Positions 10,814-54,088 of a stretch of 64,000 bases of DNA are shown in pieces. The notes beneath the pieces were generated by a model. That model ran no database searches. It was not told the origin of the DNA and was given only the letters and a program-made list of their open reading frames with translations. The stretch spans positions 1,986 to 65,985 of the forward strand of contig MWST01000033.1 in the NCBI GenBank assembly GCA_002050235.1, in the 5' to 3' direction. Source of the DNA: Polyangiaceae bacterium UTPRO1. Its GTDB lineage: Bacteria; Desulfobacterota; Binatia; UTPRO1. The position numbers were made by a program, and so were the translations under genes. Position 1 is the first letter of the stretch. Each line of letters begins with the position of its first letter.

Positions 10814-10927
10814 ATGAAAGTACGCGCATCGGTCAAACAGATCTGCAAGAAGTGCAAGATCATCCGGCGTGCGGGTGTGGTGCGGATTCTCTGCCCCAAC
10901 CCGCGTCACAAGCAGCGACAGGGCTGA
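10814..10927 (+). CDS. rpmJ: 50S ribosomal protein L36
   Basis: Hand-translated as it is below the ORF-track size cutoff: [37 protein letters not shown] (37 aa, C-x2-C...C zinc ribbon). Confidence 0.9.
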
Positions 10928-10939
10928 GGAGGAGCGGTC

Positions 10940-11320: not shown

Positions 11321-11338
11321 AGAGGATCGGAGAGAGGC

Positions 11339-11761: not shown

Positions 11762-11844
11762 GAGCGTACAGTCGAAGCAAGGCCGCCGGCGTGGCTGGAC
11801 GGTCGTGAACGGGCCGACGAGGTCGGTCCAGGAGGTTCAGCAGC

Positions 11845-12471: not shown

Positions 12472-12489
12472 GCGCGCACGGAGGTCCAA

Positions 12490-27878: not shown

Positions 27879-28639
27879 TGAAGGGCGTCATTCTCGCCGG
27901 CGGTCTCGGGACCCGGCTCTACCCGCTCACCCGGATAACCAACAAGCACCTGCTGCCGGTATTCGATCGGCCGATGATCCATTACCCGCTGCAGGCTCTC
28001 ATCAATGCCGGCATTCGCGACATCCTGCTCGTGACCGGCGGCAACAACGCCGGCGACTTCTTGAAGCTCCTCGGAAACGGCAAGGACTTCGGCCTGCAGC
28101 ACCTGAACTACACCTATCAAGAGGGCGAGGGCGGCATCGCCGCGGCGCTCTCTCTCGCCGAGCATTTCGTCGACGGCGAACGCGTGTGCGTGGTCCTCGG
28201 CGACAACATCATCGAGCGGAACTTCACGGCGTCGGCAGCGAGGTTCGCGCGGGGCGGCGAGGGGGCGCGCATCCTCCTCAAGGCGGTGCCCGATCCGGAG
28301 CGCTTCGGAGTCGCCGCATTCCGCGGCCGGCGCATCGTCGCCATCGAGGAGAAGCCGCGGCGTCCGAAAAGCCGGTACGCAGTCACCGGCATCTACATGT
28401 ACGATGCCCGCGTGTTCGACGTTATCCGCACCCTCGAGCCGTCGCGGCGCGGCGAGCTCGAGATCACCGACGTCAACAACTGGTACCTGCGGCGCGGCGA
28501 GCTCGGCTACGAGATCCTGCGCGGCTGGTGGACCGACGCCGGCACCTTCGAGGCGCTGCATCGAGCCGGCAACCTCGTGGCGAGGACGGGTGCGAACAAG
28601 CTCGACCCGCCGCGCGCGCAGACCCGGAGGCGGCGATGA
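27875..28639 (+). CDS. rmlA: glucose-1-phosphate thymidylyltransferase (short form)
   Basis: MMKGVILAGGLGTRLYPLTRITNKHLLPVFDRPMIHYPLQALINAGIRDILLV; ATG overlaps the lptD stop. Confidence 0.88.
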   Translation: MMKGVILAGGLGTRLYPLTRITNKHLLPVFDRPMIHYPLQALINAGIRDILLVTGGNNAGDFLKLLGNGKDFGLQHLNYTYQEGEGGIAAALSLAEHFVDGERVCVVLGDNIIERNFTASAARFARGGEGARILLKAVPDPERFGVAAFRGRRIVAIEEKPRRPKSRYAVTGIYMYDARVFDVIRTLEPSRRGELEITDVNNWYLRRGELGYEILRGWWTDAGTFEALHRAGNLVARTGANKLDPPRAQTRRRR

Positions 28640-29091
28640 TCCATGGCGTCCACTTGAAGCGGCTTGCCGTGCACGCCGACGATCGCGGCTTCCTGATGGA
28701 GGTCCTGAAGGCGGACGACCCCTGCTTCCAGACCATCAAGCAGACGACATACACGGAAGCGTTCCCCGGCGTCATCAAGGCCTTCCATTGGCATCGCCGC
28801 CAGTGGGACATGTGGTTCTTCGTCCGCGGGATGGCGCAGGTGGTGCTGTACGATCTGCGCCCCGACTCGCCGACGCACCGGCAGACGAACGTGTTCGTGA
28901 TCGGCGACCGCGCCCCCGGGCTGCTGGCGATTCCGAGCGGGGTGGCGCATGGCTACCGCGTCCTCGGTCAGGAGGTGGCGGGGCTGCTCTACCACACGAC
29001 CGAGGCCTATGATCCGCAGGATCCGGACGAAGAACGCATCCCGTTCGACGATCCGACGATCGGGTTCGACTGGACGACGCGACCGCGCTGA
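28636..29091 (+). CDS. rmlC: dTDP-4-dehydrorhamnose 3,5-epimerase family cupin
   Basis: 151 aa; HADDRGFLMEVL ... AFHWHRRQ ... cupin core; ATG 28636 overlaps the rmlA TGA. The ORF-track entry 28186..29091 carries a spurious extension. Confidence 0.7.
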   Translation: MIHGVHLKRLAVHADDRGFLMEVLKADDPCFQTIKQTTYTEAFPGVIKAFHWHRRQWDMWFFVRGMAQVVLYDLRPDSPTHRQTNVFVIGDRAPGLLAIPSGVAHGYRVLGQEVAGLLYHTTEAYDPQDPDEERIPFDDPTIGFDWTTRPR

Positions 29092-29095
29092 GACC

Positions 29096-31098
<2,003 letters not shown>

Positions 31099-31101
31099 CG
31101 C

Positions 31102-32079
31102 GTGCGCTACTTCGTCACCGGGATCGGCGGCTTCGCGGGGGGGCATCTCACCGCCGCGTTGCTCGCGGCCGGACACGAGGTGGCCGGGCTGGTGCGCGAG
31201 CAGCGGTCCCGTCCTGCGCTGGAGGCGCTCGCGGCGCGGTATCCGCGGTTCCGCCTCGAGGCGCTCGCGAGCGGAGACGTCGCCGACTTCGAAGCCGTGC
31301 GGACCGCCGTCGCCGCGGCGCGGCCGGACGGCATCTTCCATCTCGCCGGGATCGCGTTCGCGCCCCGCGCCGCTGCCGATCCGGCGCGAACCCTGGCGGT
31401 GAACGTGCTCGGGACGTGCAACGTGCTCACCGCTGCGCGGCGCGAGGCGCCGGCGAGCCGGGTCGTGGTGGTCGGGTCCGCCGACGTCTACGGTGCTGCG
31501 GCGAGCGCCGGCGAGCCGATCGACGAGGACCGGCCGCTCCGACCCGTCAGCACGTACGGGCTTTCCAAGGCTGCGGCCGACATGGCGGCCTTCCAGGCGT
31601 GGTGGGAGGCGGGGCTAGCCGTGGTCAGGGCACGCCCCTTCAATCACACCGGACCGGGCCAGCGCGGCGACTTCGTGTGCTCGGACTTCGCCCGGCAAGT
31701 CGCGCGCATCGAGCGCGGCGAGGCGCCGCCGGTGCTGCACGTCGGTAATCTCGCGAGCGCCCGCGATTTCGCCGATGTCCGCGACGTCGTGCGCGGCTAC
31801 GTGACGCTGATGGAGCGCGGTGCGCCCGGCGCCGCCTATAACCTCTGCAGCGGCGAGGCGGTGACGGTCGGCGCCATCGTGGAGATGCTCCGGGCCGAGG
31901 CGCGCGTCGCGTTCGCGGTCGTCGAGGAGGCGGCGCGCGTCCGGCACCGCGAGATCCCTCGGGTCGTCGGCGACGCGGCGCGGGCCCGCGCACTCGGCTG
32001 GGTCCCGGCGATCCCGCTCGGCCGCACTCTCCGCGACCTCCTCGAGTACTGGCGCGCGGCCGACGGCAGCGCCGCCTAG
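31102..32079 (+). CDS. rmd: GDP-4-dehydro-6-deoxy-D-mannose reductase (Rmd-like; GDP-D-rhamnose forming) SDR
   Basis: Colinear motif matches to Pseudomonas Rmd as I recall it: FVTGIGGFAGGHL, FHLAGIAFAPRAAADPARTLAVNVLGTCNVL, RPFNHTGPGQRGDFVCSDFARQVARIERG, VGNLASARDFADVRDV, YNLCSGEAVTV. It lies immediately 3' of gmd. Confidence 0.7.
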   Translation: MRYFVTGIGGFAGGHLTAALLAAGHEVAGLVREQRSRPALEALAARYPRFRLEALASGDVADFEAVRTAVAAARPDGIFHLAGIAFAPRAAADPARTLAVNVLGTCNVLTAARREAPASRVVVVGSADVYGAAASAGEPIDEDRPLRPVSTYGLSKAAADMAAFQAWWEAGLAVVRARPFNHTGPGQRGDFVCSDFARQVARIERGEAPPVLHVGNLASARDFADVRDVVRGYVTLMERGAPGAAYNLCSGEAVTVGAIVEMLRAEARVAFAVVEEAARVRHREIPRVVGDAARARALGWVPAIPLGRTLRDLLEYWRAADGSAA

Positions 32080-32141
32080 GCTCGACGGCGGCGCCGGAAA
32101 CCGCCTTGAGGGCGCAAGATCGCCATGTTAGGGAACCTCGG

Positions 32142-33856
<1,715 letters not shown>

Positions 33857-33860
<4 letters not shown>

Positions 33861-34825
33861 GCGCGCCGGCTCGCGCACCGGCCGCGGCTGCGCCGGTGGA
33901 CGTGTCGATCGTCGTCCCGGTCTACAACGAGCGGCCGACGATCGCAGCGCTCTTCGCGGAGTGCCGCGCCGCGCTCGATCCGCTCGGTCTCGCCTGGGAG
34001 GTCGTTTTCGTCGACGACGGCTCCAGCGACGGCTCGTTCGAGGTCGTCACGGCGTTGCAGGCGGGCGATCCGCGCTGTCGTGGCCTGCGGCTGCGCACCA
34101 ATCTCGGCAAGGCGGCGGCGCTGGCCGTGGGATTTCGCGCCGCCCGCGGCGAGCGGCTGGTCACCATGGACGGCGACCTTCAGGACGACCCGGCGGAGGT
34201 GCCGCGCTTGCTGGCGGCGCTCGACGCCGGCGCCGATCTGGTGTGCGGGTGGAAGGTCGATCGGCAGGACTCGCTCTCGCGGGTCGCGGCGTCGCGGGTC
34301 TTCAACGCTGTCTCGCGCCTCGCATCGGGGGTCGAGCTGCACGACATGAACTGCGGGCTCAAGGCGTTCCGGCGCGAAGTGACGACGGAGGTGCCGCTCT
34401 ACGGCGAGTTGCATCGCTTCATTCCCATGCTTGCCGCGGGGCAGGGGTTTAGAGTGACCGAGCAGCCGGTCTCGCACCGCCCGCGCGCGTTCGGGCGCTC
34501 GCGCTACGGCTGGTCGCGGGCGCTCCGCGGCATGATGGACATGATCACGGTGATCTGCCTGACCCGCTACAACCGCCGGCCGGCGCACTTCTTCTCGCTT
34601 CCCGGCGCGGCGCTGGTCATGATCGGCGGCGTGCTCTGCGGCTACATCGCGCTGCTGCGCGTGATGTACGGCAACATACAGAGCCGTCATCCGCTCCTCA
34701 TCTTCGCCGTCCTGCTCGTGGTGGTGGGCGTGCAGCTGTTCACGACCGGCCTCGTCGGGGAGATGCTCGTCGACGCGGGACGGCGCGTCGACGACGACTA
34801 TCATCGCGCGCGCAAGATCGGCTGA
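33857..34825 (+). CDS. GT2 polyprenyl-phosphate hexosyltransferase (Dpm1/GtrB/ArnC-like)
   Basis: SIVVPVYNERPTIAALFAE...VVFVDDGSSDGS...TMDGDLQDDP (DxD-type) catalytic domain plus two C-terminal TM helices. This is the typical lipid-linked monosaccharide donor synthase architecture. ATG overlaps the gspE stop. Confidence 0.75.
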
Positions 34826-34840
34826 GCGGCTTCCCCGCCC

Positions 34841-36211
34841 ATGAAGCTGCTGGATCGTTGGCGCCGCGGCGCCGTCGCCAAGCGGCGGGCGGCGCTCGTC
34901 GGCCTCGACGGCGTCGGGATGCCGCTGGCGCGAGCGCTCGTCGACGGCGGGGTGATGCCGCGTCTCGGGGCGCTGTGGCGCGCCGGTACGGTGGCGCCCA
35001 TGCGGTCGACGCTGCCGACCATCTCCAACGTGTCGTGGACGAGCCTCGTGACCGGCGTGAACCCTGGGCGCCACGGGATCTTCGGCTTCACGGACGTCGC
35101 CCGCGACCGCTACACGACGACGTTCCCGAACTTCGGGCACGTCCGGGCGCCGACGCTCTGGGACGCGCTCGGCGCGCGCGGGCTGACGTCGGTCGTCCTC
35201 AACGTGCCCGGCACCTACCCGGCGCAGGACATCGTCGGGACTCTGGTGTCGGGATTCGTCGCCGTGAGCTTGGAGCGCGCGGTGCGACCGGCGGCGGCGC
35301 TCGCGGTCTTGCGCGCGCAGGGTTACCGTATCGACGTGGACTACGTCGCCGCCGATCGGCGGCCCGAGGCCTTCTTCACGGATCTCTTCGCGACCCTTGC
35401 CGCGCGCCGCCGGGTGTTCCGCCACTTCCTCGCTACCGACTGGGACTGTTTTCTCGGCGTCATCACGGAAACCGACCGGCTGCATCACTATTTCTGGCAC
35501 GCCTGGGCGGATCGCGGGCACCGCTGGCACCAGCGCTTCCTCGATTTCTACGCCGCTGTGGACGCGGCGATCGGCGAGGTCGCGGACGCGGTCGGCGATG
35601 CGACGCCGCTCTTCGTCGTCGCCGACCACGGCCACGCCGCGATCGAGAGCGAATGCCACCCCAACGTCTGGCTCCAGCGCGAGGGCCTGCTGCGCTTTGC
35701 CGTCGACGTTCCGCGCTCGCTCGCCGACATGGACCGGGCTTCGCGGGTTTTCGTCCTCGACCCGGGCCGCATCTACCTGCACTACCGCGGCCGATTCGCC
35801 GAAGGAACGGTGGCTCCCGGGGCCGAAGCCGAGGAGATCCTCGAGCACGTCGCCGCCGGGCTCCGCGGGCTCGTGTACCCGGAAGGTGCGGGCGGCGGCG
35901 GCGTGCGGCCGGTCGCGGCGGTGCATCGCGGCACCGACCTCTACACCGGACCGTACGTCGGCGACGCGCCCGACGCGGTCGTCGAGCCGCGGGCGGGATT
36001 CGACTTCAAGGGCTCGCTCGGCCGCCGCGCCCTCTTTGACAGGAGCCAACTCACCGGCATGCACACCTACGACGATGCCCTCTTCAGCGTGAACCGCCCG
36101 GACGTCTCGACCGACGCCCTCGCCGTCGTCGACGTGGCGCCGACGCTGCTGGCGTGGCTCGGGTGCCCGCCGCTAGAGCCGATGGACGGACGGCCGCGGA
36201 TGGCCGCATGA
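34841..36211 (+). CDS. alkaline-phosphatase superfamily protein (type I phosphodiesterase / nucleotide pyrophosphatase-like)
   Basis: 456 aa, no TM segment; metal-site-like LPTISNVSWTSLVTGVNPGRHGIFGF ... VVADHGH. Confidence 0.55.
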   Translation: MKLLDRWRRGAVAKRRAALVGLDGVGMPLARALVDGGVMPRLGALWRAGTVAPMRSTLPTISNVSWTSLVTGVNPGRHGIFGFTDVARDRYTTTFPNFGHVRAPTLWDALGARGLTSVVLNVPGTYPAQDIVGTLVSGFVAVSLERAVRPAAALAVLRAQGYRIDVDYVAADRRPEAFFTDLFATLAARRRVFRHFLATDWDCFLGVITETDRLHHYFWHAWADRGHRWHQRFLDFYAAVDAAIGEVADAVGDATPLFVVADHGHAAIESECHPNVWLQREGLLRFAVDVPRSLADMDRASRVFVLDPGRIYLHYRGRFAEGTVAPGAEAEEILEHVAAGLRGLVYPEGAGGGGVRPVAAVHRGTDLYTGPYVGDAPDAVVEPRAGFDFKGSLGRRALFDRSQLTGMHTYDDALFSVNRPDVSTDALAVVDVAPTLLAWLGCPPLEPMDGRPRMAA

Positions 36212-37407
36212 GCGGCGGCACGCGTTCCGGCGCCGGATCCAGGCGCTTCGCCCTGATCGGACCGAGCGCGCCGTTTCGCGGCGGTATAGCCGAGTACCAC
36301 GATCGGCTCGCGGGCGCTCTCGCGACGGCGGGGCATGCGGTACAGCGGATCTCCTACCGGCGCCTGTATCCGGCCATCTTGTTTCCGGGGCGCACCCAGT
36401 ACGTAGATCCGTCCGTGGTCGGCGCCGCCGACGCCGCACGCGCTTCGCTGCCGCCGCCGGAGGCGCTCCTCGACTCGGTCGGTCCCGGCAGCTGGCTGGC
36501 GGTGGCGCGCCGTGCCGCCGCGGCCGACGCGGCGATCGTCGAGTGGTGGCATCCGTTCTTCGCGCCGGCCCTCGCCGTGATCACGTCGCTCCTACGGCGT
36601 CGCGGCGTGCCGTCCATATTCGTCTGCCACAACCTCGAGCCGCACGAGCCGATGCCGGGCGGCGCCTGGCTCGCGGCGCGGGCGCTCGGGCGGGCAGCGG
36701 CGTTCGTCGCCCAGAGCGAGCGCGATGCCGCGCGTCTACGCGCCGCGCACCCCGGTCGCCCGACAGCGATCGTACTGCCGCCCGCCGTCGCGCCGCCGCC
36801 CTGTCCGCACGGCGGCGGGCGCGCCGCTTGCGCAGCGGCGCTCGGCCTACCGGCGGCGCCGCGCCGCCTCCTCTTCTTCGGCTACGTCCGCGAGTACAAG
36901 GGGCTGCCGACGCTCTTCGAGGCGCTGCCGCGGCTCGACGCCGACGTCCAGCTCGTGGTGGCAGGCGAGATCTACCACCACGACGCCGCATATTATCGGC
37001 AGCTGGCGGCGCGGCTCGGGGTGGGCGCCCGTGTCGTCCTCCTCGACCGCTTCCTCGCCGCATCCGAGGTTGCGTGCTGCTTCCGGGCGAGCGACCTCGT
37101 CGTCCTGCCGTACTGGGAAGCGAGCCAGAGCGCGGTCGTTCCTCTTGCCATGGCGAGCGGGCGAGCGGTCGTCGCGACCCGTGTCGGCGGTCTCCCGGAT
37201 CTCGTGCGCGACGGCGTCACCGGTCTTCTCGTACCCCCGCGCGATCCCGCCGCTCTCGCCGCAGCCGTCGTCGACGCTCTCGCGGCCGGCGAAGCCATGG
37301 GCCGCGCCGCGTGCGCCGCGGCGGCGCGCCTCGATTGGCGAGCGGCCGCCGACGCCATCACGGATCTGGCGACCACCGCTATATGCGGCCCAGCAGGCGC
37401 GTGTTAA
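36208..37407 (+). CDS. GT4-family (GT-B) glycosyltransferase
   Basis: C-terminal Glycos_transf_1-like core (ASDLVVLPYWEASQSAVVPLAMASGRAVVATRVGGLPDLV...GLLVPPRD) with an E-x7-E-type motif region; ATG overlaps the preceding stop. Confidence 0.7.
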   Translation: MSGGTRSGAGSRRFALIGPSAPFRGGIAEYHDRLAGALATAGHAVQRISYRRLYPAILFPGRTQYVDPSVVGAADAARASLPPPEALLDSVGPGSWLAVARRAAAADAAIVEWWHPFFAPALAVITSLLRRRGVPSIFVCHNLEPHEPMPGGAWLAARALGRAAAFVAQSERDAARLRAAHPGRPTAIVLPPAVAPPPCPHGGGRAACAAALGLPAAPRRLLFFGYVREYKGLPTLFEALPRLDADVQLVVAGEIYHHDAAYYRQLAARLGVGARVVLLDRFLAASEVACCFRASDLVVLPYWEASQSAVVPLAMASGRAVVATRVGGLPDLVRDGVTGLLVPPRDPAALAAAVVDALAAGEAMGRAACAAAARLDWRAAADAITDLATTAICGPAGAC

Positions 37408-37434: not shown

Positions 37435-38664
37435 ATGGCGCAATTTCAGTATCGAGCAACCGACTTTCAGGGGAAGATCGTCGAGGGCTCGATGGAGGCC
37501 GGCGAAGAGCGCTCGGTCGTCCAGCGCCTGCGCGAGAAGGGCTTGATCCCGATCCGGATCGGGGCCGGCGCCAGCGCCGCTCCGCGGGCTGCCGGCAAAG
37601 CGCTCGCCCTTCCGACTTTCGGGCGCAAGGGCGTCAAGACCTCGGAGCTCCTGATCTTCACGCGCGAGCTCGCGACCCTGCTCCAGGCGGGCATGCCGCT
37701 CGACCGCAGCCTGACGACCCTCACCCAGCTCGCGCAGACCCCGGAGCTGAAGCGCGTCACCTCCGAGATCCTCGAGTCCGTGCGCGGCGGCACGGCGCTC
37801 GCCGAGGCGCTCGGCCAGCACCCGAAGGTGTTTCCGCCGCTCTACGTCAACATGGTCAAAGCCGGTGAAGTCGGCGGCGTCCTCGATCAGGTGTTGCAGC
37901 GGCTCGTCGAGTATCTGCAGAGCGCCGAGGAGCTGCGCGACGAGGTGATCTCCGCCCTCACGTACCCGCTGATTCTGGTCGGTGTCGGCGGCGTGTCGGT
38001 GGCCATCCTGCTGGTCTTCGTGCTGCCGAAGTTCGCGACCATGTTCGCCGACCTCGGACAGGCGCTGCCGCTCTCGACCCGCATGATGCTCGCCATCAGC
38101 GACGCCGCCACGAGCCCGTGGTCGTTGATCGGCGTTCCGGCGGTGGCGGGTGCGCTCTACGGCCTCTATCGCTATCTGGTGACCAGCAAGCGTCTGGCCT
38201 TCGACGCGTTCAAGCTGCGCCTGCCCGTCGTCGGCAACTTGCTGCGGCTCACCGAGGTAGCGCGCTTCGGCCGCACGCTCGGAGTGCTGCTCCGCAGCGG
38301 CGTGCCGATGCTGCAGGCGCTCGACATCGTGCGCGCCGTCGCCACCAACCAGGTCGTCGCCCAGGCGCTGAACGAGGTCCAGGTCGGCGTCCGCGAAGGG
38401 GCCGGCATGGCCGCGCCGCTCGGGCGGAGCGGGGTCTTCCCGCAGCTGGCCCTGCAGATGATCGCGGTCGGCGAGGATACCGGAAAGCTCGACGAGATGC
38501 TGGTGACGACGGCCGACTTCTTCGACCGCGAGGTGCGCAACGACGTCAAGCGGCTCACCCGGCTCCTCGAGCCCGCCATGATCTTGATCATGGGACTGGT
38601 CGTCGGCTTCATGGTGATCTCCATGCTGATGGCCGTCTTCAGCATCAACGACGTCGACATTTGA
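37435..38664 (+). CDS. gspF: type II secretion system inner-membrane platform protein GspF
   Basis: 409 aa with duplicated GspF/PilC domains and 3 TM segments; MAQFQYRATDFQGKIVEG ... LQAGMPLDRSL ... LRSGVPMLQAL. Confidence 0.88.
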   Translation: MAQFQYRATDFQGKIVEGSMEAGEERSVVQRLREKGLIPIRIGAGASAAPRAAGKALALPTFGRKGVKTSELLIFTRELATLLQAGMPLDRSLTTLTQLAQTPELKRVTSEILESVRGGTALAEALGQHPKVFPPLYVNMVKAGEVGGVLDQVLQRLVEYLQSAEELRDEVISALTYPLILVGVGGVSVAILLVFVLPKFATMFADLGQALPLSTRMMLAISDAATSPWSLIGVPAVAGALYGLYRYLVTSKRLAFDAFKLRLPVVGNLLRLTEVARFGRTLGVLLRSGVPMLQALDIVRAVATNQVVAQALNEVQVGVREGAGMAAPLGRSGVFPQLALQMIAVGEDTGKLDEMLVTTADFFDREVRNDVKRLTRLLEPAMILIMGLVVGFMVISMLMAVFSINDVDI

Positions 38665-38684
38665 TCTTCGGAGGAAGGACACCC

Positions 38685-39131
38685 ATGGACGATATCCGCA
38701 CTAACGATCGGGCGCGGCCGCGACGGCGCCAGGGCGGTTTCACCCTCGTCGAGCTGCTGGTCGTGATGGTGATCCTGGGCCTGCTCGCCGCGCTCGTGGT
38801 GCCGGCGTATCTGGGTCGCGAGCGCAAGGCCCGTTCGCAGGCCGCCAGGACCCAGATCGAGCTTCTGGGCACGGCGCTCGATACCTTCCGGCTCGACGTC
38901 GGTCGCTACCCGTCGACCCAGGAGGGCTTGAACGCGCTGCGCGAGGGTCGCGGCATACCCGGCTGGGACGGGCCCTATCTCAAGAAGGACGTGCCGGCGG
39001 ACCCCTGGGGCCGCCCTTTCATCTACCAGAGCCCTGGCGAACACGGCGAGTACGACCTCTACACGTACGGCGCCGACGGGGCGCCGGGCGGAGACGGTGA
39101 CGCGCGGGATCTGGCGAGCTGGGGCGGCTGA
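38685..39131 (+). CDS. gspG: major pseudopilin GspG
   Basis: Prepilin N-terminus ...RRRQG|GFTLVELLVVMVILGLLAALVVP and a GspG C-terminal fold (DGPYLKKDVPADPWGRPFIYQSPGEHGEYDLYTYGADGAPGG). Confidence 0.88.
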   Translation: MDDIRTNDRARPRRRQGGFTLVELLVVMVILGLLAALVVPAYLGRERKARSQAARTQIELLGTALDTFRLDVGRYPSTQEGLNALREGRGIPGWDGPYLKKDVPADPWGRPFIYQSPGEHGEYDLYTYGADGAPGGDGDARDLASWGG

Positions 39132-39138
39132 ACCCGCC

Positions 39139-39615
39139 ATGTCGGGCCGGGTGCGCGCGTCGCGCACGGCGGAGGGCGGATTCTCGCTCTTCGAGCTGGT
39201 CGTCGTGCTGATGATCATCGCCATCGCCAGCGGCCTCGCGGCACCGGGCATCCAGAGCGGTTGGCGCGCCCGTGAGGTGCGGACCGGGACGCGGGCGCTC
39301 GCTGCGGTCATGCGTGGGCTCCGCGAGCGCGCCGTGCGCCGTGGCGCCGAACAGGAGCTCGTGATCGATGCCGACGGGCAGACGTATCGCTGGACGGGCG
39401 AACAGCAAGCGACGCTGCCGGGCGGCGCTGCGGTGACCGGCATCCGCGGCGGTTGGCGCGACCAGGACGGCGGTGCCAGGCTGGTGTTCTACCCGAACGG
39501 AGGCTCCAGCGGCATCGCGGTCGTGGTCGGACAGCAGGACGGCGATGGCTCGAGCTTCACGATCCGCGTCGATCCGCTACTCGGGACGGTCGTGATCCGG
39601 GACGCGACGACGTGA
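39139..39615 (+). CDS. gspH: minor pseudopilin GspH-like
   Basis: Prepilin-type N-terminus G|FSLFELVVVLMIIAIASGLAAP; 158 aa. Confidence 0.65.
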   Translation: MSGRVRASRTAEGGFSLFELVVVLMIIAIASGLAAPGIQSGWRAREVRTGTRALAAVMRGLRERAVRRGAEQELVIDADGQTYRWTGEQQATLPGGAAVTGIRGGWRDQDGGARLVFYPNGGSSGIAVVVGQQDGDGSSFTIRVDPLLGTVVIRDATT

Positions 39616-39617
39616 CC

Positions 39618-40052
39618 ATGGAGCGATCTCGCATTCGCAGCGGCCGGCGATCGGCGGGCTTCACGTTGATCGAGGTGGCGATCGCGATGGCCATCGTCGG
39701 CGTCGGCGTGGTGGCGGTGCTGCAGATCTTCACCGCGGCGCTGCGTACGGAGCGCGGTGCCGGCATCCGGGCGCGCGCGGCGATGCACGCGCGCGCGCTC
39801 CTCGAACAGACGATGACCGAGCCCGATCCCGTGGCGGGCCAGGACAGCGGCCAGCTCCCGGACGGCTATCGCTACGAGCGCCGTGTCCGCGAGGCTTCGG
39901 AGCTCCTCGAGGGCACCGGCCGCCATCTGGACGTGAAGAGCGAAATCACGCTCTTCGAGATCGAAGTGTCGGTGCTGTGGACGCAGGCGGAAGACCGGGA
40001 AGGCGTCTACACCGTGCGCACGCTGCGCGTGGGCCCGAACCCGCAGGCATGA
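39618..40052 (+). CDS. gspI: minor pseudopilin GspI
   Basis: G|FTLIEVAIAMAIVGVGVVAVLQIF; 144 aa; canonical position. Confidence 0.7.
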   Translation: MERSRIRSGRRSAGFTLIEVAIAMAIVGVGVVAVLQIFTAALRTERGAGIRARAAMHARALLEQTMTEPDPVAGQDSGQLPDGYRYERRVREASELLEGTGRHLDVKSEITLFEIEVSVLWTQAEDREGVYTVRTLRVGPNPQA

Positions 40053-40801
40053 GGGAGCGCCGCCGGGAAGCCGGCTTCACGCTCCTCGAGCTGGTGCTGG
40101 CTCTCGTGATCTTCGGGATGATCGCCGCCGTCGTCTACAGCGCTTTCTATTTCGGGCATCGCGCCGTGGCGAGCGGCGAGCGGTCGGCAGACGAGAATCA
40201 GCGCATGCGGCTCGCCGAGGAGATGCTCGGCCGGCAGGTACGCTCGGCGGTGTACTATTTCGCGCACTACGACGACGAGGACAACGTCCCGTTCTTCCTG
40301 GGTATGCCCGACGGGATGATGTTCGTGACGAGCGCGCCGCAGAGTCGCGGCGGCACCGGGCTCGCCGCGGTCTCCTATCGGCTGATCGACGGCCAGCTCG
40401 TGGTCGAGGAGCGCGTCAACTTCACGCCGAAGGATCTCTACACGCCATCTTCCGACCTGCCGGTGCAGCGGGCCGTCCTGCTCGCAGGCTTCACTTCGCT
40501 GCGCTTCGAGTACATGGCGGCGGAGGAGCGCGATCTCGGCTGGGTCGATCGTTGGGACGCGCGCGACGAGGACGATCTCCCGGGCCTGGTGCGGGTCACG
40601 GTCGAGGGGCTGCCGTACTTCGGCGGCGCTCCGTGGGTGCGGGAGATACCGCTCTTCACCCGCGCGACCGGATGGGGCACCAACGACTTCCAGGACCCGC
40701 CCGAGGACGAGACCGAGGAAGAGCTCCAGGGCACGACGGCGGCCCCGGGCGAGTCGCCCGACAACGATGCGGTCGACGAAGACGAGGAGCTGGCGCAATG
40801 A
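40049..40801 (+). CDS. gspJ: minor pseudopilin GspJ
   Basis: MRERREAG|FTLLELVLALVIFGMIAAVVYSAF; 250 aa with an acidic C-terminal tail. Confidence 0.7.
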   Translation: MRERRREAGFTLLELVLALVIFGMIAAVVYSAFYFGHRAVASGERSADENQRMRLAEEMLGRQVRSAVYYFAHYDDEDNVPFFLGMPDGMMFVTSAPQSRGGTGLAAVSYRLIDGQLVVEERVNFTPKDLYTPSSDLPVQRAVLLAGFTSLRFEYMAAEERDLGWVDRWDARDEDDLPGLVRVTVEGLPYFGGAPWVREIPLFTRATGWGTNDFQDPPEDETEEELQGTTAAPGESPDNDAVDEDEELAQ

Positions 40802-41790
40802 GGTCGGCCGGCGGCGAGCGCGGCATCGCGCTCCTCATGGTCATCTGGATCTTCATGGTGCTCAGCGTGCTGTCGGCCGAGTTCGCACGCGCCATGCGCG
40901 ACGATGCGATCGCTACCCAGAACCTCGCCGAGGAGGTGCAGGCGCGCGGGGTCGCGATTGCGGGCATCAACCGGGCGATCTACCGACTGCTCTACGCCCG
41001 CCAGGCGGGGGCGGAGGACGACGATCCCGATGCCGTCGGCGCCGACGCTCCGGCGCCGTGGCTTCCCGACGGCCGTTGGCACGAGGAGCCGTACTGGGGC
41101 GGCACCTACGGCGTCCGGCTGATCGACGAAGGCGGCAAGATCTCGCTGAACCGCGCCGACGAGACGCTGCTGCGCAAGGTGTTCGAGACGCTGGGGATGA
41201 AGCCCGACGAACAGGAGGAGATCGTCGACGCCATCATCGACTGGCGCGACAGCGACGACCTCCACCGCCTGCACGGCGCCGAGGACGAGTACTATATGAA
41301 GCTTCCGGAGCCGTACCACGCCAAGAACGGCCCCTTCGACTCGGTGGACGAGCTGCTGCAGGTTCGTGGTATCACCCGCGAACTGTTCTTCGGCGAGCGG
41401 AGCCGGGGGCTCGGATCGGATACGCTGCCGTCGATTCCGCTGCGCGAAGTCTTTTCCGTCTTCAATCGGAGCGCTAACATCAACGTCCGGACGGCGCCGG
41501 TGGCGGTGCTGCGGGTGGTGCTGGGAGGGGACGAGCAGGCCGTGGACGAGATCGTCACTGCGCGCGACGAAGATCCGAGCAGCGTACTGGGCTTGATTCG
41601 CGCCAAGGTTGCGGATCAGGTGCTGGCCCGCCGGCTGGTGGATCGGGCACCGAGCCGGGTCGCGATCGAGGCCCGCGCTATGATGCAGAACGGTCGAGTT
41701 CAGGCCCGGGTCGGGGCGGTAGTGGAGATCCCCGAGGACGGCGACGGTTTCCACATCGATCGGTGGTACGACCGCTTGCCGGCATTCTGA
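40798..41790 (+). CDS. gspK: minor pseudopilin GspK
   Basis: 330 aa; N-terminal hydrophobic segment GIALLMVIWIFMVLSVLSAEFARAMRDDA and a GspK-like body (GKISLNRADETLLRKVFETLGM...ELLQVRGITRELF helix-hairpin-helix-like). Confidence 0.75.
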   Translation: MRSAGGERGIALLMVIWIFMVLSVLSAEFARAMRDDAIATQNLAEEVQARGVAIAGINRAIYRLLYARQAGAEDDDPDAVGADAPAPWLPDGRWHEEPYWGGTYGVRLIDEGGKISLNRADETLLRKVFETLGMKPDEQEEIVDAIIDWRDSDDLHRLHGAEDEYYMKLPEPYHAKNGPFDSVDELLQVRGITRELFFGERSRGLGSDTLPSIPLREVFSVFNRSANINVRTAPVAVLRVVLGGDEQAVDEIVTARDEDPSSVLGLIRAKVADQVLARRLVDRAPSRVAIEARAMMQNGRVQARVGAVVEIPEDGDGFHIDRWYDRLPAF

Positions 41791-41793
41791 TCC

Positions 41794-43209
41794 ATGGATC
41801 TCGCGACCCTCTCACAGCGCCTCCGACGCGTCGATTTTCTCGACGGGCTCGGGATCTATGTCGGCCCCGATCACGTGTCGCTGGCGCTCGTGCGCAAGCG
41901 CCTCCTGCGGGTGGCGCTGGCGCAGAACCGGTCGTATCCCCTGGCGCCGGTTTCGCGGCCGGAGGAGCGGCTGCAGGGGCTCACGGAGGCCGTTGCGGCT
42001 TTCAAGCGCGAGACCCAGGTCGAGCCCGGGGCGGTGCACCTCTGCCTGGCCCGCCAGGAGCTCCTGCTGAACCGCCTCGTCCTCCCGATGGCGGCCCGCG
42101 AGAACCTCGACCAGGTGCTCGAATACGAGATCGAGCGCGTGATTCCTCTGCCGCGCGACGAGATCTTCTACGACTACCAGGTCCGGGAGTCGGGACAGGG
42201 GGAGAATGGCAGGCTCGCGGTGCTCGTGGTCTCGGTACCGCGCCGCGTGGTGAGTCAGTACGTCGATGCGCTCGAACGCGCCGGCATCCGGCCGAAGTCG
42301 GTCGTCGTCGCTGCTGCGGCGCTCGGCGACTACACGGCGTTCTGCCGCGGCGCGCTCGCGCAGCCCGTAGCGCTACTCGTCCGCGACGGGGCCGAGGGCG
42401 AGCTCGCGGTCTTCATCGAGCGCCAGCTCGTCGCCAGCCACGCCTTGCGCGGCCATACTCCGTCGAGCGCCGCGGTGAACGCGATGGTCCGCCGCGATCT
42501 CGCCGAGGTATTCCATGCCGTCGAGACCCCGGTGGACCTCCTCGTCGCTGCGACCCCGAACGGCGGCGGAACCGGCGCCGACCCCGAGGCAGTGCACGAT
42601 CTGTTCGCGCTCGCGAACGGTCGGCTCGACGCGCCGGCGAGCTTCTTCGACGCGGCCGATCCGACCCTGCTGCTTGCCGTCGGGGCTGCGCTCGGCGCGG
42701 TCCGCGAAGGCGTGGTCGACATCGATCTGCTGCCGGCCGAGCACCGCCCGGTGCGGGAAGGCTTCTTCGTTCCGCTCCTGCTGATGGTGGCGGTGGTGGT
42801 GCTGGCACTGGTCTACGGCGGTAGCGTCGTCGTGCGCGACGAGATGACGCGCCGGCGGCTCGCGGCCGAGGTCGAAGCGCTCGAGCCCCAGGTCGCGGCG
42901 ATCAAGAAGCAGGAGGCCGACGTGCGCCGCCTCCAGGCGCGGATCGCGACGCTGACCGAGAACCAGGACCGCCGCGTCGTGCGCTACCTGAAGGAGCTGA
43001 CCGACAAGATCCCGGCCGACGCCTATCTGACCACTCTCCGGTACCGGAACAACCGCATCGAGATGGACGGCTTCGCGACCAAGTCCTCCGAGCTCATTCA
43101 GATCCTCGAGAGCTCGCCGCTGTTCAAGAACGCGCAGTTCACTTCGCCGATCACGCAGGGACAGGGCGGCCAGGAGCGGTTCTCGATAGTGGCGGAGATC
43201 GAAGGATGA
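41794..43209 (+). CDS. gspL: GspL-like assembly protein (PilM-like cytoplasmic domain + TM + PilN-like periplasmic domain)
   Basis: 471 aa; N-terminal actin-like domain, one TM (FFVPLLLMVAVVVLALVY), a coiled coil, then a PilN/GspL periplasmic domain (YLTTLRYRNNRIEMDGFATKSSELIQILESSPLFKNAQF). Confidence 0.7.
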   Translation: MDLATLSQRLRRVDFLDGLGIYVGPDHVSLALVRKRLLRVALAQNRSYPLAPVSRPEERLQGLTEAVAAFKRETQVEPGAVHLCLARQELLLNRLVLPMAARENLDQVLEYEIERVIPLPRDEIFYDYQVRESGQGENGRLAVLVVSVPRRVVSQYVDALERAGIRPKSVVVAAAALGDYTAFCRGALAQPVALLVRDGAEGELAVFIERQLVASHALRGHTPSSAAVNAMVRRDLAEVFHAVETPVDLLVAATPNGGGTGADPEAVHDLFALANGRLDAPASFFDAADPTLLLAVGAALGAVREGVVDIDLLPAEHRPVREGFFVPLLLMVAVVVLALVYGGSVVVRDEMTRRRLAAEVEALEPQVAAIKKQEADVRRLQARIATLTENQDRRVVRYLKELTDKIPADAYLTTLRYRNNRIEMDGFATKSSELIQILESSPLFKNAQFTSPITQGQGGQERFSIVAEIEG

Positions 43210-43889
43210 GCTGGCGGGAGCGATGGGCGCAGCTCAGTGCCCGCGAGCGGCGGCTGATCGAGGCCGCCGGCGGCGTGTTCGGACTCTTTCTGGTGCACTT
43301 GTTGGTGCTCTCGCCCTTCCTCGCCTACCGGCACAATTTGCAGGACGAGATCGTGGCGTACCGCGACCAGGTCGAGAACGGCAAGGCGTACCTCGCGCGG
43401 ACGGCCGACATCACCCGCCAACGCGACACCCTCCACAAGCTCTACCAGCAGGTGCATGCACAGCTCGTTCCCGGCGATACGCCGACGCTCGCGGCCGCCA
43501 ATCTGCAGAACACGCTGCACAGCCTCGCCGGTGAGAAGGGCGTCGAGATCCAGAGCACGCAGGTCATGCGCGACGACACCGTCGGCGAGTTCCGCCGTAT
43601 CGCCGTCCGCATCACCGTGACCGGCGACCTGCAGCAGGTGGCCGACTTTCTGGCCGGCGTCGAGCACGGGCCGACGCGCGTCCTGATCCCGTTCCTCGAG
43701 ATCAGCCGGCGCGGCGCCGTCCTGCGCGGCAAAGCGGCGCGAGCACTGTCGGCGACTATCGAAGTGACCGCGTTCCTCCAGGGAGCCGCAGCGGCGCCGG
43801 ACGGCAAGACGCCGGCTGCGGGTGGCGGTCCGGGGGCGGCCGCGCCGGGCGGTGCGCCGGCAGCGCCGGCGGCGGGAGGTGCCGTCTGA
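43206..43889 (+). CDS. gspM: GspM/PilO-like inner-membrane protein
   Basis: N-terminal TM (GVFGLFLVHLLVLSPFLAY), periplasmic domain and an Ala/Gly/Pro-rich tail; position after gspL. Confidence 0.55.
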   Translation: MSWRERWAQLSARERRLIEAAGGVFGLFLVHLLVLSPFLAYRHNLQDEIVAYRDQVENGKAYLARTADITRQRDTLHKLYQQVHAQLVPGDTPTLAAANLQNTLHSLAGEKGVEIQSTQVMRDDTVGEFRRIAVRITVTGDLQQVADFLAGVEHGPTRVLIPFLEISRRGAVLRGKAARALSATIEVTAFLQGAAAAPDGKTPAAGGGPGAAAPGGAPAAPAAGGAV

Positions 43890-44566: not shown

Positions 44567-44585
44567 GAGCGGGAGGGAGGGTCGC

Positions 44586-47015: not shown

Positions 47016-47034
47016 GCTGCGCGCCGACGCCGCG

Positions 47035-54040: not shown

Positions 54041-54088
54041 GGATCGTGGCCGCGGCAGCGCCTCGGAGGAACAGGGGCCTGGTGAGCA

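What the first reader, a model, noticed from the sequence alone, without database searches (positions are those of the whole stretch)
33857..37407. GT2 (polyprenyl-P-sugar synthase) - AlkP-family - GT4 trio inserted inside the gsp operon
The Dpm1/GtrB/ArnC-like GT2 has the catalytic domain plus a C-terminal TM hairpin. That architecture is typical of enzymes making undecaprenyl-phosphate-monosaccharide donors for periplasmic GT-C enzymes. The trio is translationally coupled to gspE upstream, and gspF follows after 27 nt. I am not aware of a described T2SS operon carrying such an insertion.
Basis: partly seen in the sequence, partly recalled or inferred. Interest (0 to 1): 0.75.

Follow-up and report, generated by a model that had tools for sequence, protein, structure and literature searches.

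The report
Sugar-lipid genes nested in secretion operon
In an uncultured soil and wastewater bacterium (phylum Binatota), three intact sugar- and phosphate-handling enzyme genes sit between two genes of a protein-secretion machine; comparison with about 60 related genomes suggests they belong to a cell-surface sugar-coat pathway that wraps around the secretion genes, which is unusual in layout but built from ordinary parts.

Summary
gspE (32106-33860), a 322-aa GT2 (33857-34825, ATGA overlap), a 456-aa PF01663 AlkP-family protein (34841-36211), a 399-aa GT4 (36208-37407, ATGA overlap) and gspF (37435, 27-nt spacer) lie as described. All three are intact and under purifying selection.

The GT2 is an ArnC/GtrB/DPMS-type polyprenyl-phosphate glycosyltransferase, not a processive synthase. 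It is not an ArnC equivalog.

The "trio inserted as a unit" reading is only partly right. Across Binatota MAGs the AlkP gene is the old resident of the gspE-gspF junction: 32 of 33 species-level loci have a gsp gene beside it, and many read gspE-AlkP-gspF only. GT2 and GT4 occur in one lineage. There they always co-occur with a block directly after gspD: a TMTC-like GT-C with TPR repeats, wzm, wzt and a YfhO-like protein. Upstream lie lptD, rmlACB, gmd and rmd.

Best reading: these are envelope-glycan genes (Und-P-sugar donor, periplasmic GT-C, ABC-exported polymer) co-transcribed with, and bracketing, the T2SS genes. The AlkP substrate is unknown. A direct T2SS-glycan link is not excluded. 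I rate it a new variant of a known kind, of moderate interest.

The parts
25395..27878 (+). lptD, the outer-membrane LPS insertase. It marks the upstream edge of the conserved envelope block.
   Evidence: Pfam LptD, LptD_N and LptD_2. The order folC-lptD-sugar genes-gspE is conserved in all Binatota loci examined.
27875..32079 (+). Nucleotide-sugar genes: rmlA (27875-28639), rmlC (28636-29091), rmlB (28949-30139), gmd (about 30140-31098) and an Rmd-like SDR (31102-32079).
   Evidence: NCBIfam: rmlB scores 473 bits (cut-off 365) and gmd 438 bits (cut-off 415). The best rmlA hit is below its cut-off. rmlC is called from Pfam dTDP_sugar_isom. The gmd frame was read.
32106..33860 (+). gspE, the T2SS ATPase. 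It has an N-terminal MshEN-type region.
   Evidence: TIGR02533 GspE scores 680 bits against a cut-off of 630. A c-di-GMP motif model matches residues 25-73 at 34.7 bits, below its cut-off of 38.
33857..34825 (+). GT2: a polyprenyl-phosphate glycosyltransferase of the ArnC/GtrB/DPMS type, 322 aa. It has a DGD motif at 105-107 and a C-terminal TM hairpin.
34841..36211 (+). AlkP-superfamily protein of the NPP clade (PF01663), 456 aa, predicted cytoplasmic. It is the conserved occupant of the gspE-gspF junction in Binatota.
36208..37407 (+). GT4 family GT-B glycosyltransferase, 399 aa, soluble.
37435..47015 (+). gspF, G, H, I, J, K, L (a PilM-PilN fusion type), M, a GspC-like gene, and D.
   Evidence: Pfam. 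The same order appears in related loci.
47032..48627 (+). TMTC-like polytopic membrane protein with C-terminal TPR repeats; a candidate GT-C. The motif GFVYDD lies in its first loop.
   Evidence: TMTC_DUF1736 scores 25.1 bits, just under the cut-off of 27, and TPR models also match. The sequence was read. At least 7 hydrophobic segments. Homologues carry PF13231 PMT_2 and are named 'protein O-mannosyl-transferase' by JGI. It always follows gspD in GT2-bearing lineages.
48462..50698 (+). wzm (ABC-2 permease) and wzt (ABC ATPase with a Wzt_C carbohydrate-binding domain).
   Evidence: Pfam, NCBIfam, and conserved order.
54086..58764 (+). Two further polytopic membrane proteins. One is YfhO-like (54086-56908). 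The other (56692-58764) has at least 8 TM segments and no family match. Both are candidate GT-C enzymes.
   Evidence: YfhO scores 28.7 bits against a cut-off of 28.5, on the C-terminal stretch only. TM scans. The gene is conserved in L092 and L094.

Best explanation
The three genes belong to an envelope-glycan pathway, most likely an ABC-transporter-dependent O-polysaccharide or a similar surface glycan. In this Binatota lineage that pathway is physically interleaved and co-transcribed with the type II secretion genes. They are not T2SS components.

**Proposed mechanism**
1. The GT2 sits at the cytoplasmic face of the inner membrane. It transfers one sugar from a nucleotide sugar to undecaprenyl phosphate. 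The fold and family are shown; the activity and the sugar are inferred.
2. The Und-P-sugar is flipped to the periplasm. No flippase was identified.
3. In the periplasm it is used by one or more GT-C-type enzymes encoded just after gspD: the TMTC-like TPR protein, the YfhO-like protein, and in sister lineages a PMT_2 protein next to the GT2.
4. These enzymes decorate a polymer that is built in the cytoplasm by Leloir enzymes such as the GT4, from dTDP-rhamnose- and GDP-rhamnose-type precursors (rmlACB, gmd, rmd upstream), and exported by Wzm/Wzt.

This is the 'three-component periplasmic glycosylation' logic of GtrA/GtrB/Gtr*.

**The AlkP protein.** It is a separate and older resident of the gspE-gspF junction. 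It is a cytoplasmic metallo-phosphodiesterase or pyrophosphatase of the NPP clade with a Ser nucleophile. Its substrate is unknown; my guess is a nucleotide-linked compound.
For: **GT2 identity**
- Full-length match to ArnC, GtrB and DPMS by sequence and by predicted fold.
- A DXD motif is present and QxxRW is absent.
- It has a C-terminal TM hairpin.

**Glycan context in the window**
- Upstream: lptD, rmlA/C/B, gmd and an Rmd-like SDR.
- Downstream of gspD: the TMTC-like TPR protein, wzm, wzt with Wzt_C, a BNR protein, a YfhO-like protein, a methyltransferase and another GT2.

**Co-variation across genomes**
- Every locus with GT4 (and GT2, where the flank reaches) in the gspE-gspF interval has TMTC-wzm-wzt(-BNR-YfhO) directly after gspD wherever the contig extends past gspD. 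This holds for L092-L095 and L097-L099.
- Loci with gspE-AlkP-gspF only have an H+-pyrophosphatase and unrelated genes after gspD (L132, L151), with no TMTC, wzm or wzt hits in L141 or L170.
- No TMTC-like orthologue was found on any of the large AlkP-only contigs.

**GT2 and GT-C travel together**
- In one sister lineage the interval also holds a PMT_2 GT-C, FabH, MaoC and an MsbA-like exporter.
- In another, gspE-GT2 is followed by a convergent GT1 plus PMT_2, with wzt-wzm directly upstream of gspE in L175 and ABC transporter genes a few kb downstream in L174.

**The T2SS does not need these genes**
- The gsp operon is intact in lineages lacking GT2 and GT4, and in one (L160) lacking AlkP too.

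**Precedent**
- Three-component modification of ABC-exported O antigens is established (PMC11127046).
Against: - No flippase (GtrA, MATE or SMR type) and no WaaL ligase were identified in the window.
- The GT-C assignment of the TMTC-like protein rests on a sub-threshold Pfam hit, its topology and a motif.
- The tight ATGA coupling of GT2 to gspE is kept in lineages whose GT2 is only 55-58% identical to the window's. The gspD-TMTC-wzm adjacency recurs in a second, divergent lineage with a minimal T2SS (L118, L119, L123, L130). Both could reflect a real functional link to secretion rather than co-regulation alone.
- The near-constant AlkP-gsp association (32 of 33 species-level loci) is not explained by this model.
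- Nothing here is experimental.
Confidence: 0.55

Rival explanations
1. T2SS-dedicated protein O-glycosylation. The GT2 supplies Und-P-sugar to the TMTC-like GT-C. The periplasmic TPR domain of that enzyme recruits pseudopilins, other T2SS parts or secreted cargo, which are then O-glycosylated. This would parallel TfpW and TfpO acting on type IV pilins, or eukaryotic TMTC acting on cadherins.
For: - The GT2 is translationally coupled to gspE, and the TMTC-like gene starts about 17 nt after the gspD stop.
- TPR domains usually bind proteins, and TMTC-type enzymes are protein O-mannosyltransferases (established knowledge). JGI names homologues 'protein O-mannosyl-transferase'.
- The gspD-TMTC adjacency occurs in two divergent lineages.
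- Pilin glycosylation by GT-C enzymes is known (bioRxiv 10.1101/2020.04.19.049825, listed).
Against: - The stop codon of the TMTC-like gene overlaps the wzm start in relatives (L092: 11620/11623). This ties it at least as closely to the polysaccharide exporter as to gspD.
- T2SS operons of sister lineages lack GT2, GT4 and the TMTC-like gene entirely.
- The GT-C is not next to the pseudopilin genes.
- GspG has no obvious Ser/Thr-rich tail (by eye only).
Confidence: 0.15
2. The gsp machine itself exports a glycan or glycoconjugate. The polymer is made by the flanking genes, crosses the inner membrane through Wzm/Wzt, and leaves through the GspD secretin driven by the pseudopilus. This has been proposed for slime secretion in myxobacteria and cyanobacteria and for the hps locus.
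For: - The gspF-gspD genes are bracketed on both sides by glycan genes in one co-directional array with no terminator-like sites in the gaps.
- No OPX/PCP-type outer-membrane polysaccharide exporter was seen in the window. This is a negative result and only partial.
- GspD secretins are reported as necessary for exopolymer slime secretion, and the hps locus mixes GTs with pseudopilins (PMC12475490).
- gspE sits directly after wzt-wzm in L175.
Against: - lptD at the head of the array, and the Wzt_C-type transporter, fit ordinary O-antigen export through the Lpt pathway.
- Lineages with an intact gsp operon but no adjacent glycan block exist.
- The proposal for secretin-mediated glycan export is itself indirect.
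Confidence: 0.1
3. The AlkP protein is a T2SS accessory or regulator. It would be a cytoplasmic NPP-type phosphodiesterase that hydrolyses a nucleotide signal (for example c-di-GMP, pGpG or another dinucleotide) near the MshEN-bearing GspE ATPase, tuning secretion. On this reading GT2 and GT4 are unrelated passengers.
For: - AlkP lies between, or next to, gspE and gspF in 32 of 33 species-level loci where it is at least 50% identical. Relatives at 40% identity still lie within 2-5 kb of gspE-gspF in a different arrangement.
- Its closest folds are nucleotide pyrophosphatases/phosphodiesterases, including ENPP1, a cyclic-dinucleotide hydrolase.
- Candidate catalytic residues are invariant.
- GspE has a sub-threshold c-di-GMP-binding motif.
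Against: - In one lineage AlkP lies upstream of gspE, right after the sugar genes and next to a CobW-type GTPase. One lineage has gspE-gspF with no AlkP (L160).
- Distant homologues associate instead with PAPS-reductase, ATP-sulfurylase and PHP genes, or in archaea with SDR and GT2 genes. That points to nucleotide-sulfate or sugar chemistry rather than signalling.
- There is no direct evidence for any substrate.
Confidence: 0.1
4. The trio is a decaying or accidental insertion, or the GT2 is a processive polysaccharide synthase.
For: None found.
Against: - The ORFs are intact and GC3 is 0.84-0.90.
- dN/dS is 0.12-0.36.
- The arrangement is conserved in 13-15 species-level genomes.
- The GT2 has no QxxRW motif, only two TM helices, and its top 25 fold matches are all polyprenyl-phosphate GTs.
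Confidence: 0.02

Closest known systems
Three-component periplasmic glycosylation systems: GtrA/GtrB/Gtr* of Shigella and Salmonella; gmlABC of Klebsiella O2; CsbB/YfhO and GacI/GacL in Gram-positives (PMC11127046 and references there; partly my own knowledge)
   Same: - A GtrB/ArnC-type GT2 with a C-terminal TM anchor makes a polyprenyl-P-monosaccharide.
- GT-C membrane enzymes, including a YfhO-like one, are encoded in the same array.
- An ABC-transporter (Wzm/Wzt) polymer pathway is alongside, as in Klebsiella O2.
   Different: - No GtrA-type flippase was found.
- The components are split by ten T2SS genes.
- The GT-C candidates are TMTC-like (with TPR) and YfhO-like rather than Gtr*-type.
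- The donor sugar and the acceptor are unknown.
ArnC (undecaprenyl-phosphate L-Ara4FN transferase) and the Arn lipid A modification pathway
   Same: ArnC is the best sequence and fold match: about 35-37% identity over the full length, including the juxtamembrane and TM helices. One sister lineage also has a PMT_2/ArnT-like GT-C and an MsbA-like exporter in the same interval.
   Different: The GT2 scores 186 bits against the 529-bit equivalog cut-off. No arnA, arnB, arnD, arnE or arnF genes are present in the window. It should not be called ArnC.
Cyanobacterial hps (hormogonium polysaccharide) locus and secretin-dependent slime secretion (PMC12475490)
   Same: Glycosyltransferase genes are interleaved with pseudopilin and T2SS-like genes in one locus, which prompts the idea of glycan export through a secretin.
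   Different: - hps has pseudopilins but not a full gspE-to-gspD operon.
- The GTs are only generically related: HpsE and HpsP models hit at E about 1e-6, far below their cut-offs.
- There is no AlkP gene and no GtrB-type enzyme.
Type IV pilin glycosylation loci: TfpO/PilO and TfpW of Pseudomonas aeruginosa (bioRxiv 10.1101/2020.04.19.049825; my own knowledge)
   Same: A GT-C enzyme encoded within a type IV filament gene cluster uses a polyprenyl-linked donor to glycosylate a filament subunit.
   Different: There the GT-C gene lies directly after pilA and the target is known. Here the GT-C candidate follows gspD and is coupled to wzm. No target is known.
NPP / PhnA / PafA clade of the alkaline phosphatase superfamily
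   Same: - A PF01663 match at 125 bits.
- Best fold matches are Xanthomonas NPP, PhnA, PafA/SPAP and ENPP1/3.
- The nucleophile position (S62) aligns with the Thr of PhnA.
- The Asp and His positions are invariant.
   Different: - Only 13-18% identity and TM-score about 0.46 to any solved structure.
- No signal peptide or TM helix, so it is cytoplasmic.
- The nucleophile is Ser rather than Thr.
- It is far below the PhnA equivalog cut-off (41 bits against 408).
- Its conserved position between gspE and gspF has no counterpart in the known members.

Membership tests
Polyprenyl-phosphate glycosyltransferase (GT2, GtrB/ArnC/DPMS type) | GT-A catalytic domain with a DXD metal/nucleotide motif | tested here: met
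   PF00535 matches at E 4.5e-31. DGD at 105-107 aligns with DAD of ArnC, and VDDGSSD aligns with IDDGSSD. Both are invariant in 15 homologues.
Polyprenyl-phosphate glycosyltransferase (GT2, GtrB/ArnC/DPMS type) | Full-length collinearity with solved members, including the juxtamembrane helices and the C-terminal TM hairpin | tested here: met
   ArnC (9bhc) aligns to residues 11-304 at E 1.6e-54, and GtrB (5ekp) to 12-304. The model has helices 219-237, 242-271 and 279-309. The top 25 Foldseek PDB hits are all ArnC, GtrB or DPMS over about 300-320 aligned columns for most.
Polyprenyl-phosphate glycosyltransferase (GT2, GtrB/ArnC/DPMS type) | Not a processive synthase: no QxxRW motif and no multi-helix channel | tested here: met
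   No Q..RW motif. Only two TM helices, both C-terminal. PgaC and NodC models match only the first ~100 residues of the GT-A domain.
Polyprenyl-phosphate glycosyltransferase (GT2, GtrB/ArnC/DPMS type) | Tetrameric assembly, and transfer of a sugar to undecaprenyl phosphate | not testable with these tools
   Only a monomer was modelled.
ArnC equivalog (Und-P L-Ara4FN transferase) | Score above the NCBIfam equivalog cut-off, and an arn operon context | tested here: not met
   NF007986 scores 186.4 bits against a cut-off of 529. No arnA, B, D, E, F or T genes were seen in the window.
Alkaline phosphatase superfamily, NPP clade (PF01663) | Family HMM above its gathering score, and the AlkP core fold | tested here: met
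   PF01663 scores 125.2 bits against 23, covering 19-411 of 456 residues. The model has pLDDT 76, and its best PDB matches are Xac NPP, PhnA, PafA and ENPP1/3 at probability 1.0.
Alkaline phosphatase superfamily, NPP clade (PF01663) | Conserved nucleophile and metal-binding Asp/His residues | tested here: met
   D23, S62, D212, H216, D262, H263, H265 and H408 are invariant in 14 sequences down to 53% identity. S62 aligns with the nucleophile position of PhnA. Assigning the remaining residues to metal sites is by analogy.
Alkaline phosphatase superfamily, NPP clade (PF01663) | Extracytoplasmic location, as in classical NPPs and PafA | tested here: not met
   There is no hydrophobic N-terminus and no TM segment. 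The protein is predicted cytoplasmic.
GT4 (GT-B, retaining) glycosyltransferase | Two Rossmann-like halves matched by the GT4 N-terminal and GT1 C-terminal family models | tested here: met
   PF13692 at 1.1e-28, PF00534 at 8.4e-21, PF13579 at 1.9e-8 and PF13439 at 3.7e-8. The best PDB relative is MshA at 5e-19. No equivalog cut-off was reached, so the specificity is unknown.
Type II secretion system operon | GspE ATPase, GspF platform, major and minor pseudopilins, GspL/M and the GspD secretin in one array | tested here: met
   GspE scores 680 bits against a cut-off of 630. GspF scores 407.7, just under its cut-off of 424. G, H, J, K, L, M, a weak C and D are called from Pfam. No prepilin peptidase is present in the window.
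Three-component periplasmic glycosylation system (GtrA/GtrB/GT-C) | A GT-C glycosyltransferase encoded with the polyprenyl-P-sugar synthase | tested here: inconclusive
   TMTC_DUF1736 scores 25.1 bits against a cut-off of 27, with at least 7 TM segments and a GFVYDD motif. YfhO scores 28.7 against 28.5, on the C-terminal stretch only. A PMT_2 protein is adjacent to the GT2 in sister lineages. The TMTC-like protein was not modelled.
Three-component periplasmic glycosylation system (GtrA/GtrB/GT-C) | A dedicated flippase for the lipid-linked monosaccharide (GtrA, MATE or SMR type) | tested here: not met
   No such family was hit among the ORFs scanned in 25-64 kb. ORFs under 80 aa were not searched exhaustively.

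The most novel reading that the evidence does not exclude
In Binatota the type II secretion machine is functionally wired to glycan chemistry. One form of this reading is that the AlkP-family enzyme kept between gspE and gspF is a previously unrecognised cytoplasmic T2SS accessory. The other is that the GT2, the TMTC-like GT-C and Wzm/Wzt glycosylate T2SS parts or cargo, or feed a glycoconjugate through the GspD secretin.
Probability: 0.2. Interest if true: 0.75.

Novelty: new variant of a known kind. Interest (0 to 1): 0.45.

Why it matters
If the association is only positional, the finding is a tidy example of an envelope-biogenesis super-operon (LptD, O-polysaccharide, T2SS) in an uncultured phylum. 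It also corrects how these genes should be annotated: a GtrB/ArnC-type Und-P-sugar synthase, not 'cell wall glycosyltransferase' and not ArnC.

If the association is functional, it would add to the recent and still indirect evidence that T2SS-type machines handle glycans or glycoproteins. It would also give a first handle on a large uncharacterised cytoplasmic AlkP/NPP family (named 'predicted AlkP superfamily phosphohydrolase/phosphomutase' by JGI). In Binatota this family is almost always found beside gspE; in other phyla it lies beside sulfate-activation genes.

Tried and rejected
**Tested and rejected**
- Processive synthase reading of the GT2. Rejected on motif, topology and fold.
- Pseudogene remnant. 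Rejected on dN/dS and conservation.
- Calling the GT2 'ArnC'. Rejected because it is far below the equivalog cut-off and has no arn context.
- Mobile island or recent horizontal insertion. Rejected because base composition and GC3 match the neighbours, and the order folC-lptD-sugar genes-gspE is conserved across orders of the phylum.

**Tried without a useful result**
- AlkP as PhnA, a phosphonate hydrolase. The match is distant and covers only the N-terminal part.
- Sequence search of the TMTC-like N-terminal region against PDB. It returned only designed TPR proteins.
- NCBIfam scans of the unassigned downstream ORFs and of the PMT_2 proteins of relatives. Nothing informative came back.
- Literature searches for Binatota plus T2SS, and for COG3379, found nothing relevant.

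**Not possible with these tools**
- I could not test whether AlkP-only genomes carry GT2, TMTC-like, wzm or wzt genes elsewhere, because whole genomes cannot be queried.
- I could not test whether lineages with an 'orphan' gspE have gspF-gspD elsewhere.

Full report
**1. What is there**

The window is about 70% G+C and carries a long co-directional array on the + strand. The finding's coordinates are exact.

| Gene | Coordinates | Junction with next gene |
|---|---|---|
| gspE | 32106-33860 | ATGA overlap with GT2 |
| GT2 | 33857-34825 | 15-nt spacer |
| AlkP | 34841-36211 | ATGA overlap with GT4 |
| GT4 | 36208-37407 | 27-nt spacer |
| gspF | 37435-38664 | |

Pfam confirms Glycos_transf_2, Phosphodiest (PF01663) and Glyco_trans_1_4 / Glycos_transf_1 / Glyco_trans_4_4 for the trio, and T2SSE and T2SSF for the flanks. 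gspE passes the NCBIfam GspE equivalog cut-off. Downstream follow gspG, H, I, J, K, L, M, a GspC-like gene and gspD. The intergenic gaps of 27-47 kb contain no terminator-like or promoter-like sites beyond shuffle expectation.

**2. Source**

Identical proteins come from the MAG 'Polyangiaceae bacterium UTPRO1'. UTPRO1 is one of the seven orders of the uncultured phylum Binatota (PMC8262859). That paper does not discuss secretion or LPS.

**3. The genes are functional**

Against orthologous loci L012, L013, L075 and L017, dS is 0.5-0.9.

| Gene | dN/dS |
|---|---|
| GT2 | 0.12-0.15 |
| AlkP | 0.17-0.36 |
| GT4 | 0.19-0.26 |
| gspE and gspF | 0.06-0.08 against L012, L013 and L075; gspF 0.19 against L017 |

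The pseudogene reading is refuted.

**4. The GT2**

- It aligns over residues 11-304 with Salmonella ArnC (E 1.6e-54). It also aligns over its whole length with GtrB (sll0501) and over residues 14-217 with Pyrococcus DPMS.
- The alignment to ArnC and GtrB includes the region after the catalytic domain.
- A hydropathy scan places its hydrophobic segments between residues 252 and 303.
- An AlphaFold model built from 15 homologues (pLDDT 82) shows the GT-A domain, a helix at 219-237 and two long C-terminal helices.
- Its 25 best PDB matches are exclusively ArnC, GtrB and DPMS.
- DGD (105-107) is invariant and there is no QxxRW motif.

The enzyme is not an ArnC orthologue: it scores 186 bits against a 529-bit cut-off. 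Its sugar is unknown.

**5. The AlkP protein**

- It has no signal peptide or TM segment.
- Its only PDB sequence relative is PhnA, at E 3e-5 over the N-terminal 100 residues. There S62 aligns with the nucleophile position.
- In 14 homologues down to 53% identity, D23, S62, D212, H216, D262, H263, H265 and H408 are invariant.
- A model (pLDDT 76) matches Xanthomonas NPP, PhnA, PafA/SPAP and ENPP1/3, but only at TM-score about 0.46 and 13-18% identity.

It is a divergent, cytoplasmic member of the NPP clade with no characterised close relative.

**6. The GT4**

It is a generic GT-B enzyme. The best relative is MshA at 5e-19, and no equivalog cut-off is reached.

**7. Surroundings in the window**

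- Upstream of gspE: folC, lptD, rmlA, rmlC, rmlB, gmd and an Rmd-like SDR.
- Directly after gspD, in order:
  - a polytopic protein with GFVYDD in its first loop, a near-threshold TMTC_DUF1736 hit and C-terminal TPRs;
  - wzm and wzt, the latter with a Wzt_C domain;
  - two unassigned ORFs and a BNR protein;
  - a YfhO-like protein and a further membrane protein with at least 8 TM segments;
  - a large methyltransferase-containing protein and another GT2.

The gsp genes are therefore embedded in what looks like an ABC-transporter-dependent surface-polysaccharide locus. That locus includes several GT-C candidates able to use a lipid-linked monosaccharide.

**8. Comparative survey**

I used neighbourhood look-ups, a scan of GTDB species representatives with an AlkP profile (80 loci), a metagenome scan with a GspD profile (80 loci), tblastn mapping and Pfam spot checks. 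Five arrangements emerge.

| Type | Arrangement | Where seen |
|---|---|---|
| A | gspE-GT2-AlkP-GT4-gspF, as in the window | L012-L017, L039, L075 |
| A' | gspE-GT2-[unknown, PMT_2 GT-C, FabH, MaoC]-AlkP-GT4-[MsbA-like ABC exporter]-gspF | L018, L019, L021-L023; Pfam |
| B | gspE-AlkP-gspF only | about 20 loci, e.g. L008-L011, L025-L031, L033-L035, L037, L086, L087, L132, L133, L141, L151, L165, L170 |
| C | sugar genes-AlkP-CobW-gspE-GT2-...-wzm-wzt, with no gspF nearby | L024, L032, L036, L073; |
| D | lptD-GT2-cupin-gmd-rmd-gspE-PP-GT2, followed by a convergent GT1 and PMT_2 GT-C; no AlkP and no gspF within 8-10 kb; wzt-wzm lie directly before gspE in L175 | L007, L174, L175; |

In type D the PP-GT2 starts within about 3 nt of the gspE stop (1-nt overlap in L175). 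One locus (L160) has gspE directly followed by gspF. Counting the species-representative loci, 32 of 33 with AlkP at 50% identity or more have gspE and/or gspF within 5 kb, and 13-15 of those carry GT2 and GT4.

**9. The key co-variation**

- Wherever GT4 (and GT2, where the flank reaches) lies in the gspE-gspF interval and the contig extends past gspD, gspD is followed by TMTC-like-wzm-wzt, and then by BNR and YfhO where the contig continues. This holds for L092-L095 and L097-L099.
- In AlkP-only loci gspD is followed by an H+-pyrophosphatase and unrelated genes (L132 and L151, and also L160). L141 and L170 show no TMTC, wzm or wzt hits.
- A search with the TMTC-like protein found orthologues on the type A and A' contigs, but none on the large type B contigs.
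- GT2 also travels with a GT-C in types A' and D.

This is the pattern expected if GT2 (and GT4) work with the GT-C/Wzm/Wzt glycan system. AlkP has a separate and older link to the gspE neighbourhood.

**10. A second, more distant lineage**

This lineage is about 54% G+C and has a minimal gspF-G-L-M-x-D cluster. It also has gspD-TMTC-like-wzm...wzt-GT4 (L118, L119, L123, L130). The T2SS-glycan adjacency is therefore not confined to UTPRO1.

**11. Distant AlkP homologues (about 40% identity)**

- In Nitrospirota the gene is translationally coupled to a PAPS-reductase-family gene, between a 7TM-GAF histidine kinase and a sigma-54 response regulator.
- In L042 the order is ATP-sulfurylase-AlkP paralogue-PHP phosphoesterase-AlkP, divergent from gspE-gspF.
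- In Thermoplasmata the order is AlkP-SDR-thioredoxin-GT2.

These contexts hint at nucleotide-linked (sulfo- or sugar-nucleotide) substrates. They do not fix the function.

**12. Interpretation**

The most economical model is that the trio are envelope-glycan genes co-transcribed with the T2SS.

- GT2 makes Und-P-sugar.
- GT-C enzymes after gspD use that donor in the periplasm, on a Wzm/Wzt-exported polymer built by GT4-type enzymes from rml/gmd/rmd products.
- This is the established three-component logic, known also for ABC-dependent O antigens (PMC11127046).

*Shown:* the gene families, the GT2 fold, purifying selection, synteny and co-variation. *Inferred:* the enzymatic activities, the sugar, the acceptor and co-transcription.

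*Unexplained:* why AlkP is almost always beside gspE; why the gspE-PP-GT2 coupling is kept at 55-58% identity; and why gspD-TMTC-wzm recurs in two lineages.

These open points keep alive the rival readings of T2SS-linked protein glycosylation, glycan export through the secretin (compare the hps locus and GspD slime nozzles, PMC12475490), or AlkP as a T2SS accessory.

**13. Verdict**

It is right about the GT2 but wrong about a unitary 'trio insertion'.
- The parts are ordinary family members. The layout is undescribed as far as the searchable literature shows. I rate it a new variant of a known kind, with moderate interest (0.45). There is about a 20% chance that a real T2SS-glycan or T2SS-AlkP functional link lies behind it.

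Noticed in passing
L047, L054, L055, L061, L062, L071 (Nitrospirota loci), around locus position 9100-12700: Homologues of the AlkP protein at about 40% identity are translationally coupled to a PAPS-reductase-family gene. They are flanked by a 7TM-GAF histidine kinase and a sigma-54 response regulator. This is a conserved four-gene module of unknown function.
   Followed up: partly
L042 6243-11314 (also L041, L045): The order is ATP-sulfurylase, AlkP paralogue, PHP-domain phosphoesterase, AlkP. The module is transcribed divergently from an adjacent gspE-gspF pair. It links the family both to sulfate activation and, again, to gsp genes.
   Followed up: partly
L032 10016-13990 (also L024, L036, L073): In one Binatota lineage AlkP lies upstream of gspE and is followed by a CobW/COG0523-type GTPase, a putative metal chaperone. 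gspE is then followed by a GT2 and wzm-wzt, with no gspF nearby.
   Followed up: partly
window 32178-32324 (GspE residues 25-73): The GspE N-terminus matches a c-di-GMP-binding MshE-type motif model just below its cut-off (34.7 bits against 38). By eye, the second 24-residue repeat fits the published motif better than the first.
   Followed up: no
window 56692-58764: A 690-aa ORF with at least 8 predicted TM segments and no Pfam or NCBIfam match overlaps the end of the YfhO-like gene. It may be a third GT-C-type enzyme.
   Followed up: no
L003 1-1922 compared with window 33183 onward: This Logan contig is 99.7% identical to the window only from the last ~680 nt of gspE onward. Its upstream part, including the 5' two-thirds of gspE, is unrelated at the DNA level; the gspE protein is 58% identical overall. 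This is either an assembly chimera or a recombination breakpoint inside gspE.
   Followed up: partly
L005/L017 and L009 (gspE region): gspE is called as short fragments, or is missing from tblastn, in some long MFD assemblies, although the flanking genes are intact. Frameshift errors in the assembly are the likely cause rather than gene loss.
   Followed up: no
L160 1-2230: One Binatota-like locus has gspE followed directly by gspF after a ~350-nt gap, with no AlkP gene. AlkP is therefore not universal at this junction.
   Followed up: no
L130 5279-19370 (also L118, L119, L123): A lineage with lower G+C (about 54%) has a compact gspF-G-L-M-x-D cluster with no gspE upstream. It is followed by a TMTC-like TPR protein, wzm, an FG-GAP protein, wzt and a GT4. 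lpxA and a SIS-domain gene lie upstream.
   Followed up: partly
window 1-14000: The first 14 kb is lower in G+C (about 64% against about 70%) and has positive AT skew. I took it to be a ribosomal-protein or translation gene cluster but ran no family search there. argS, a SPOR-domain gene, trpE, trpB, trpA and folC follow.
   Followed up: no
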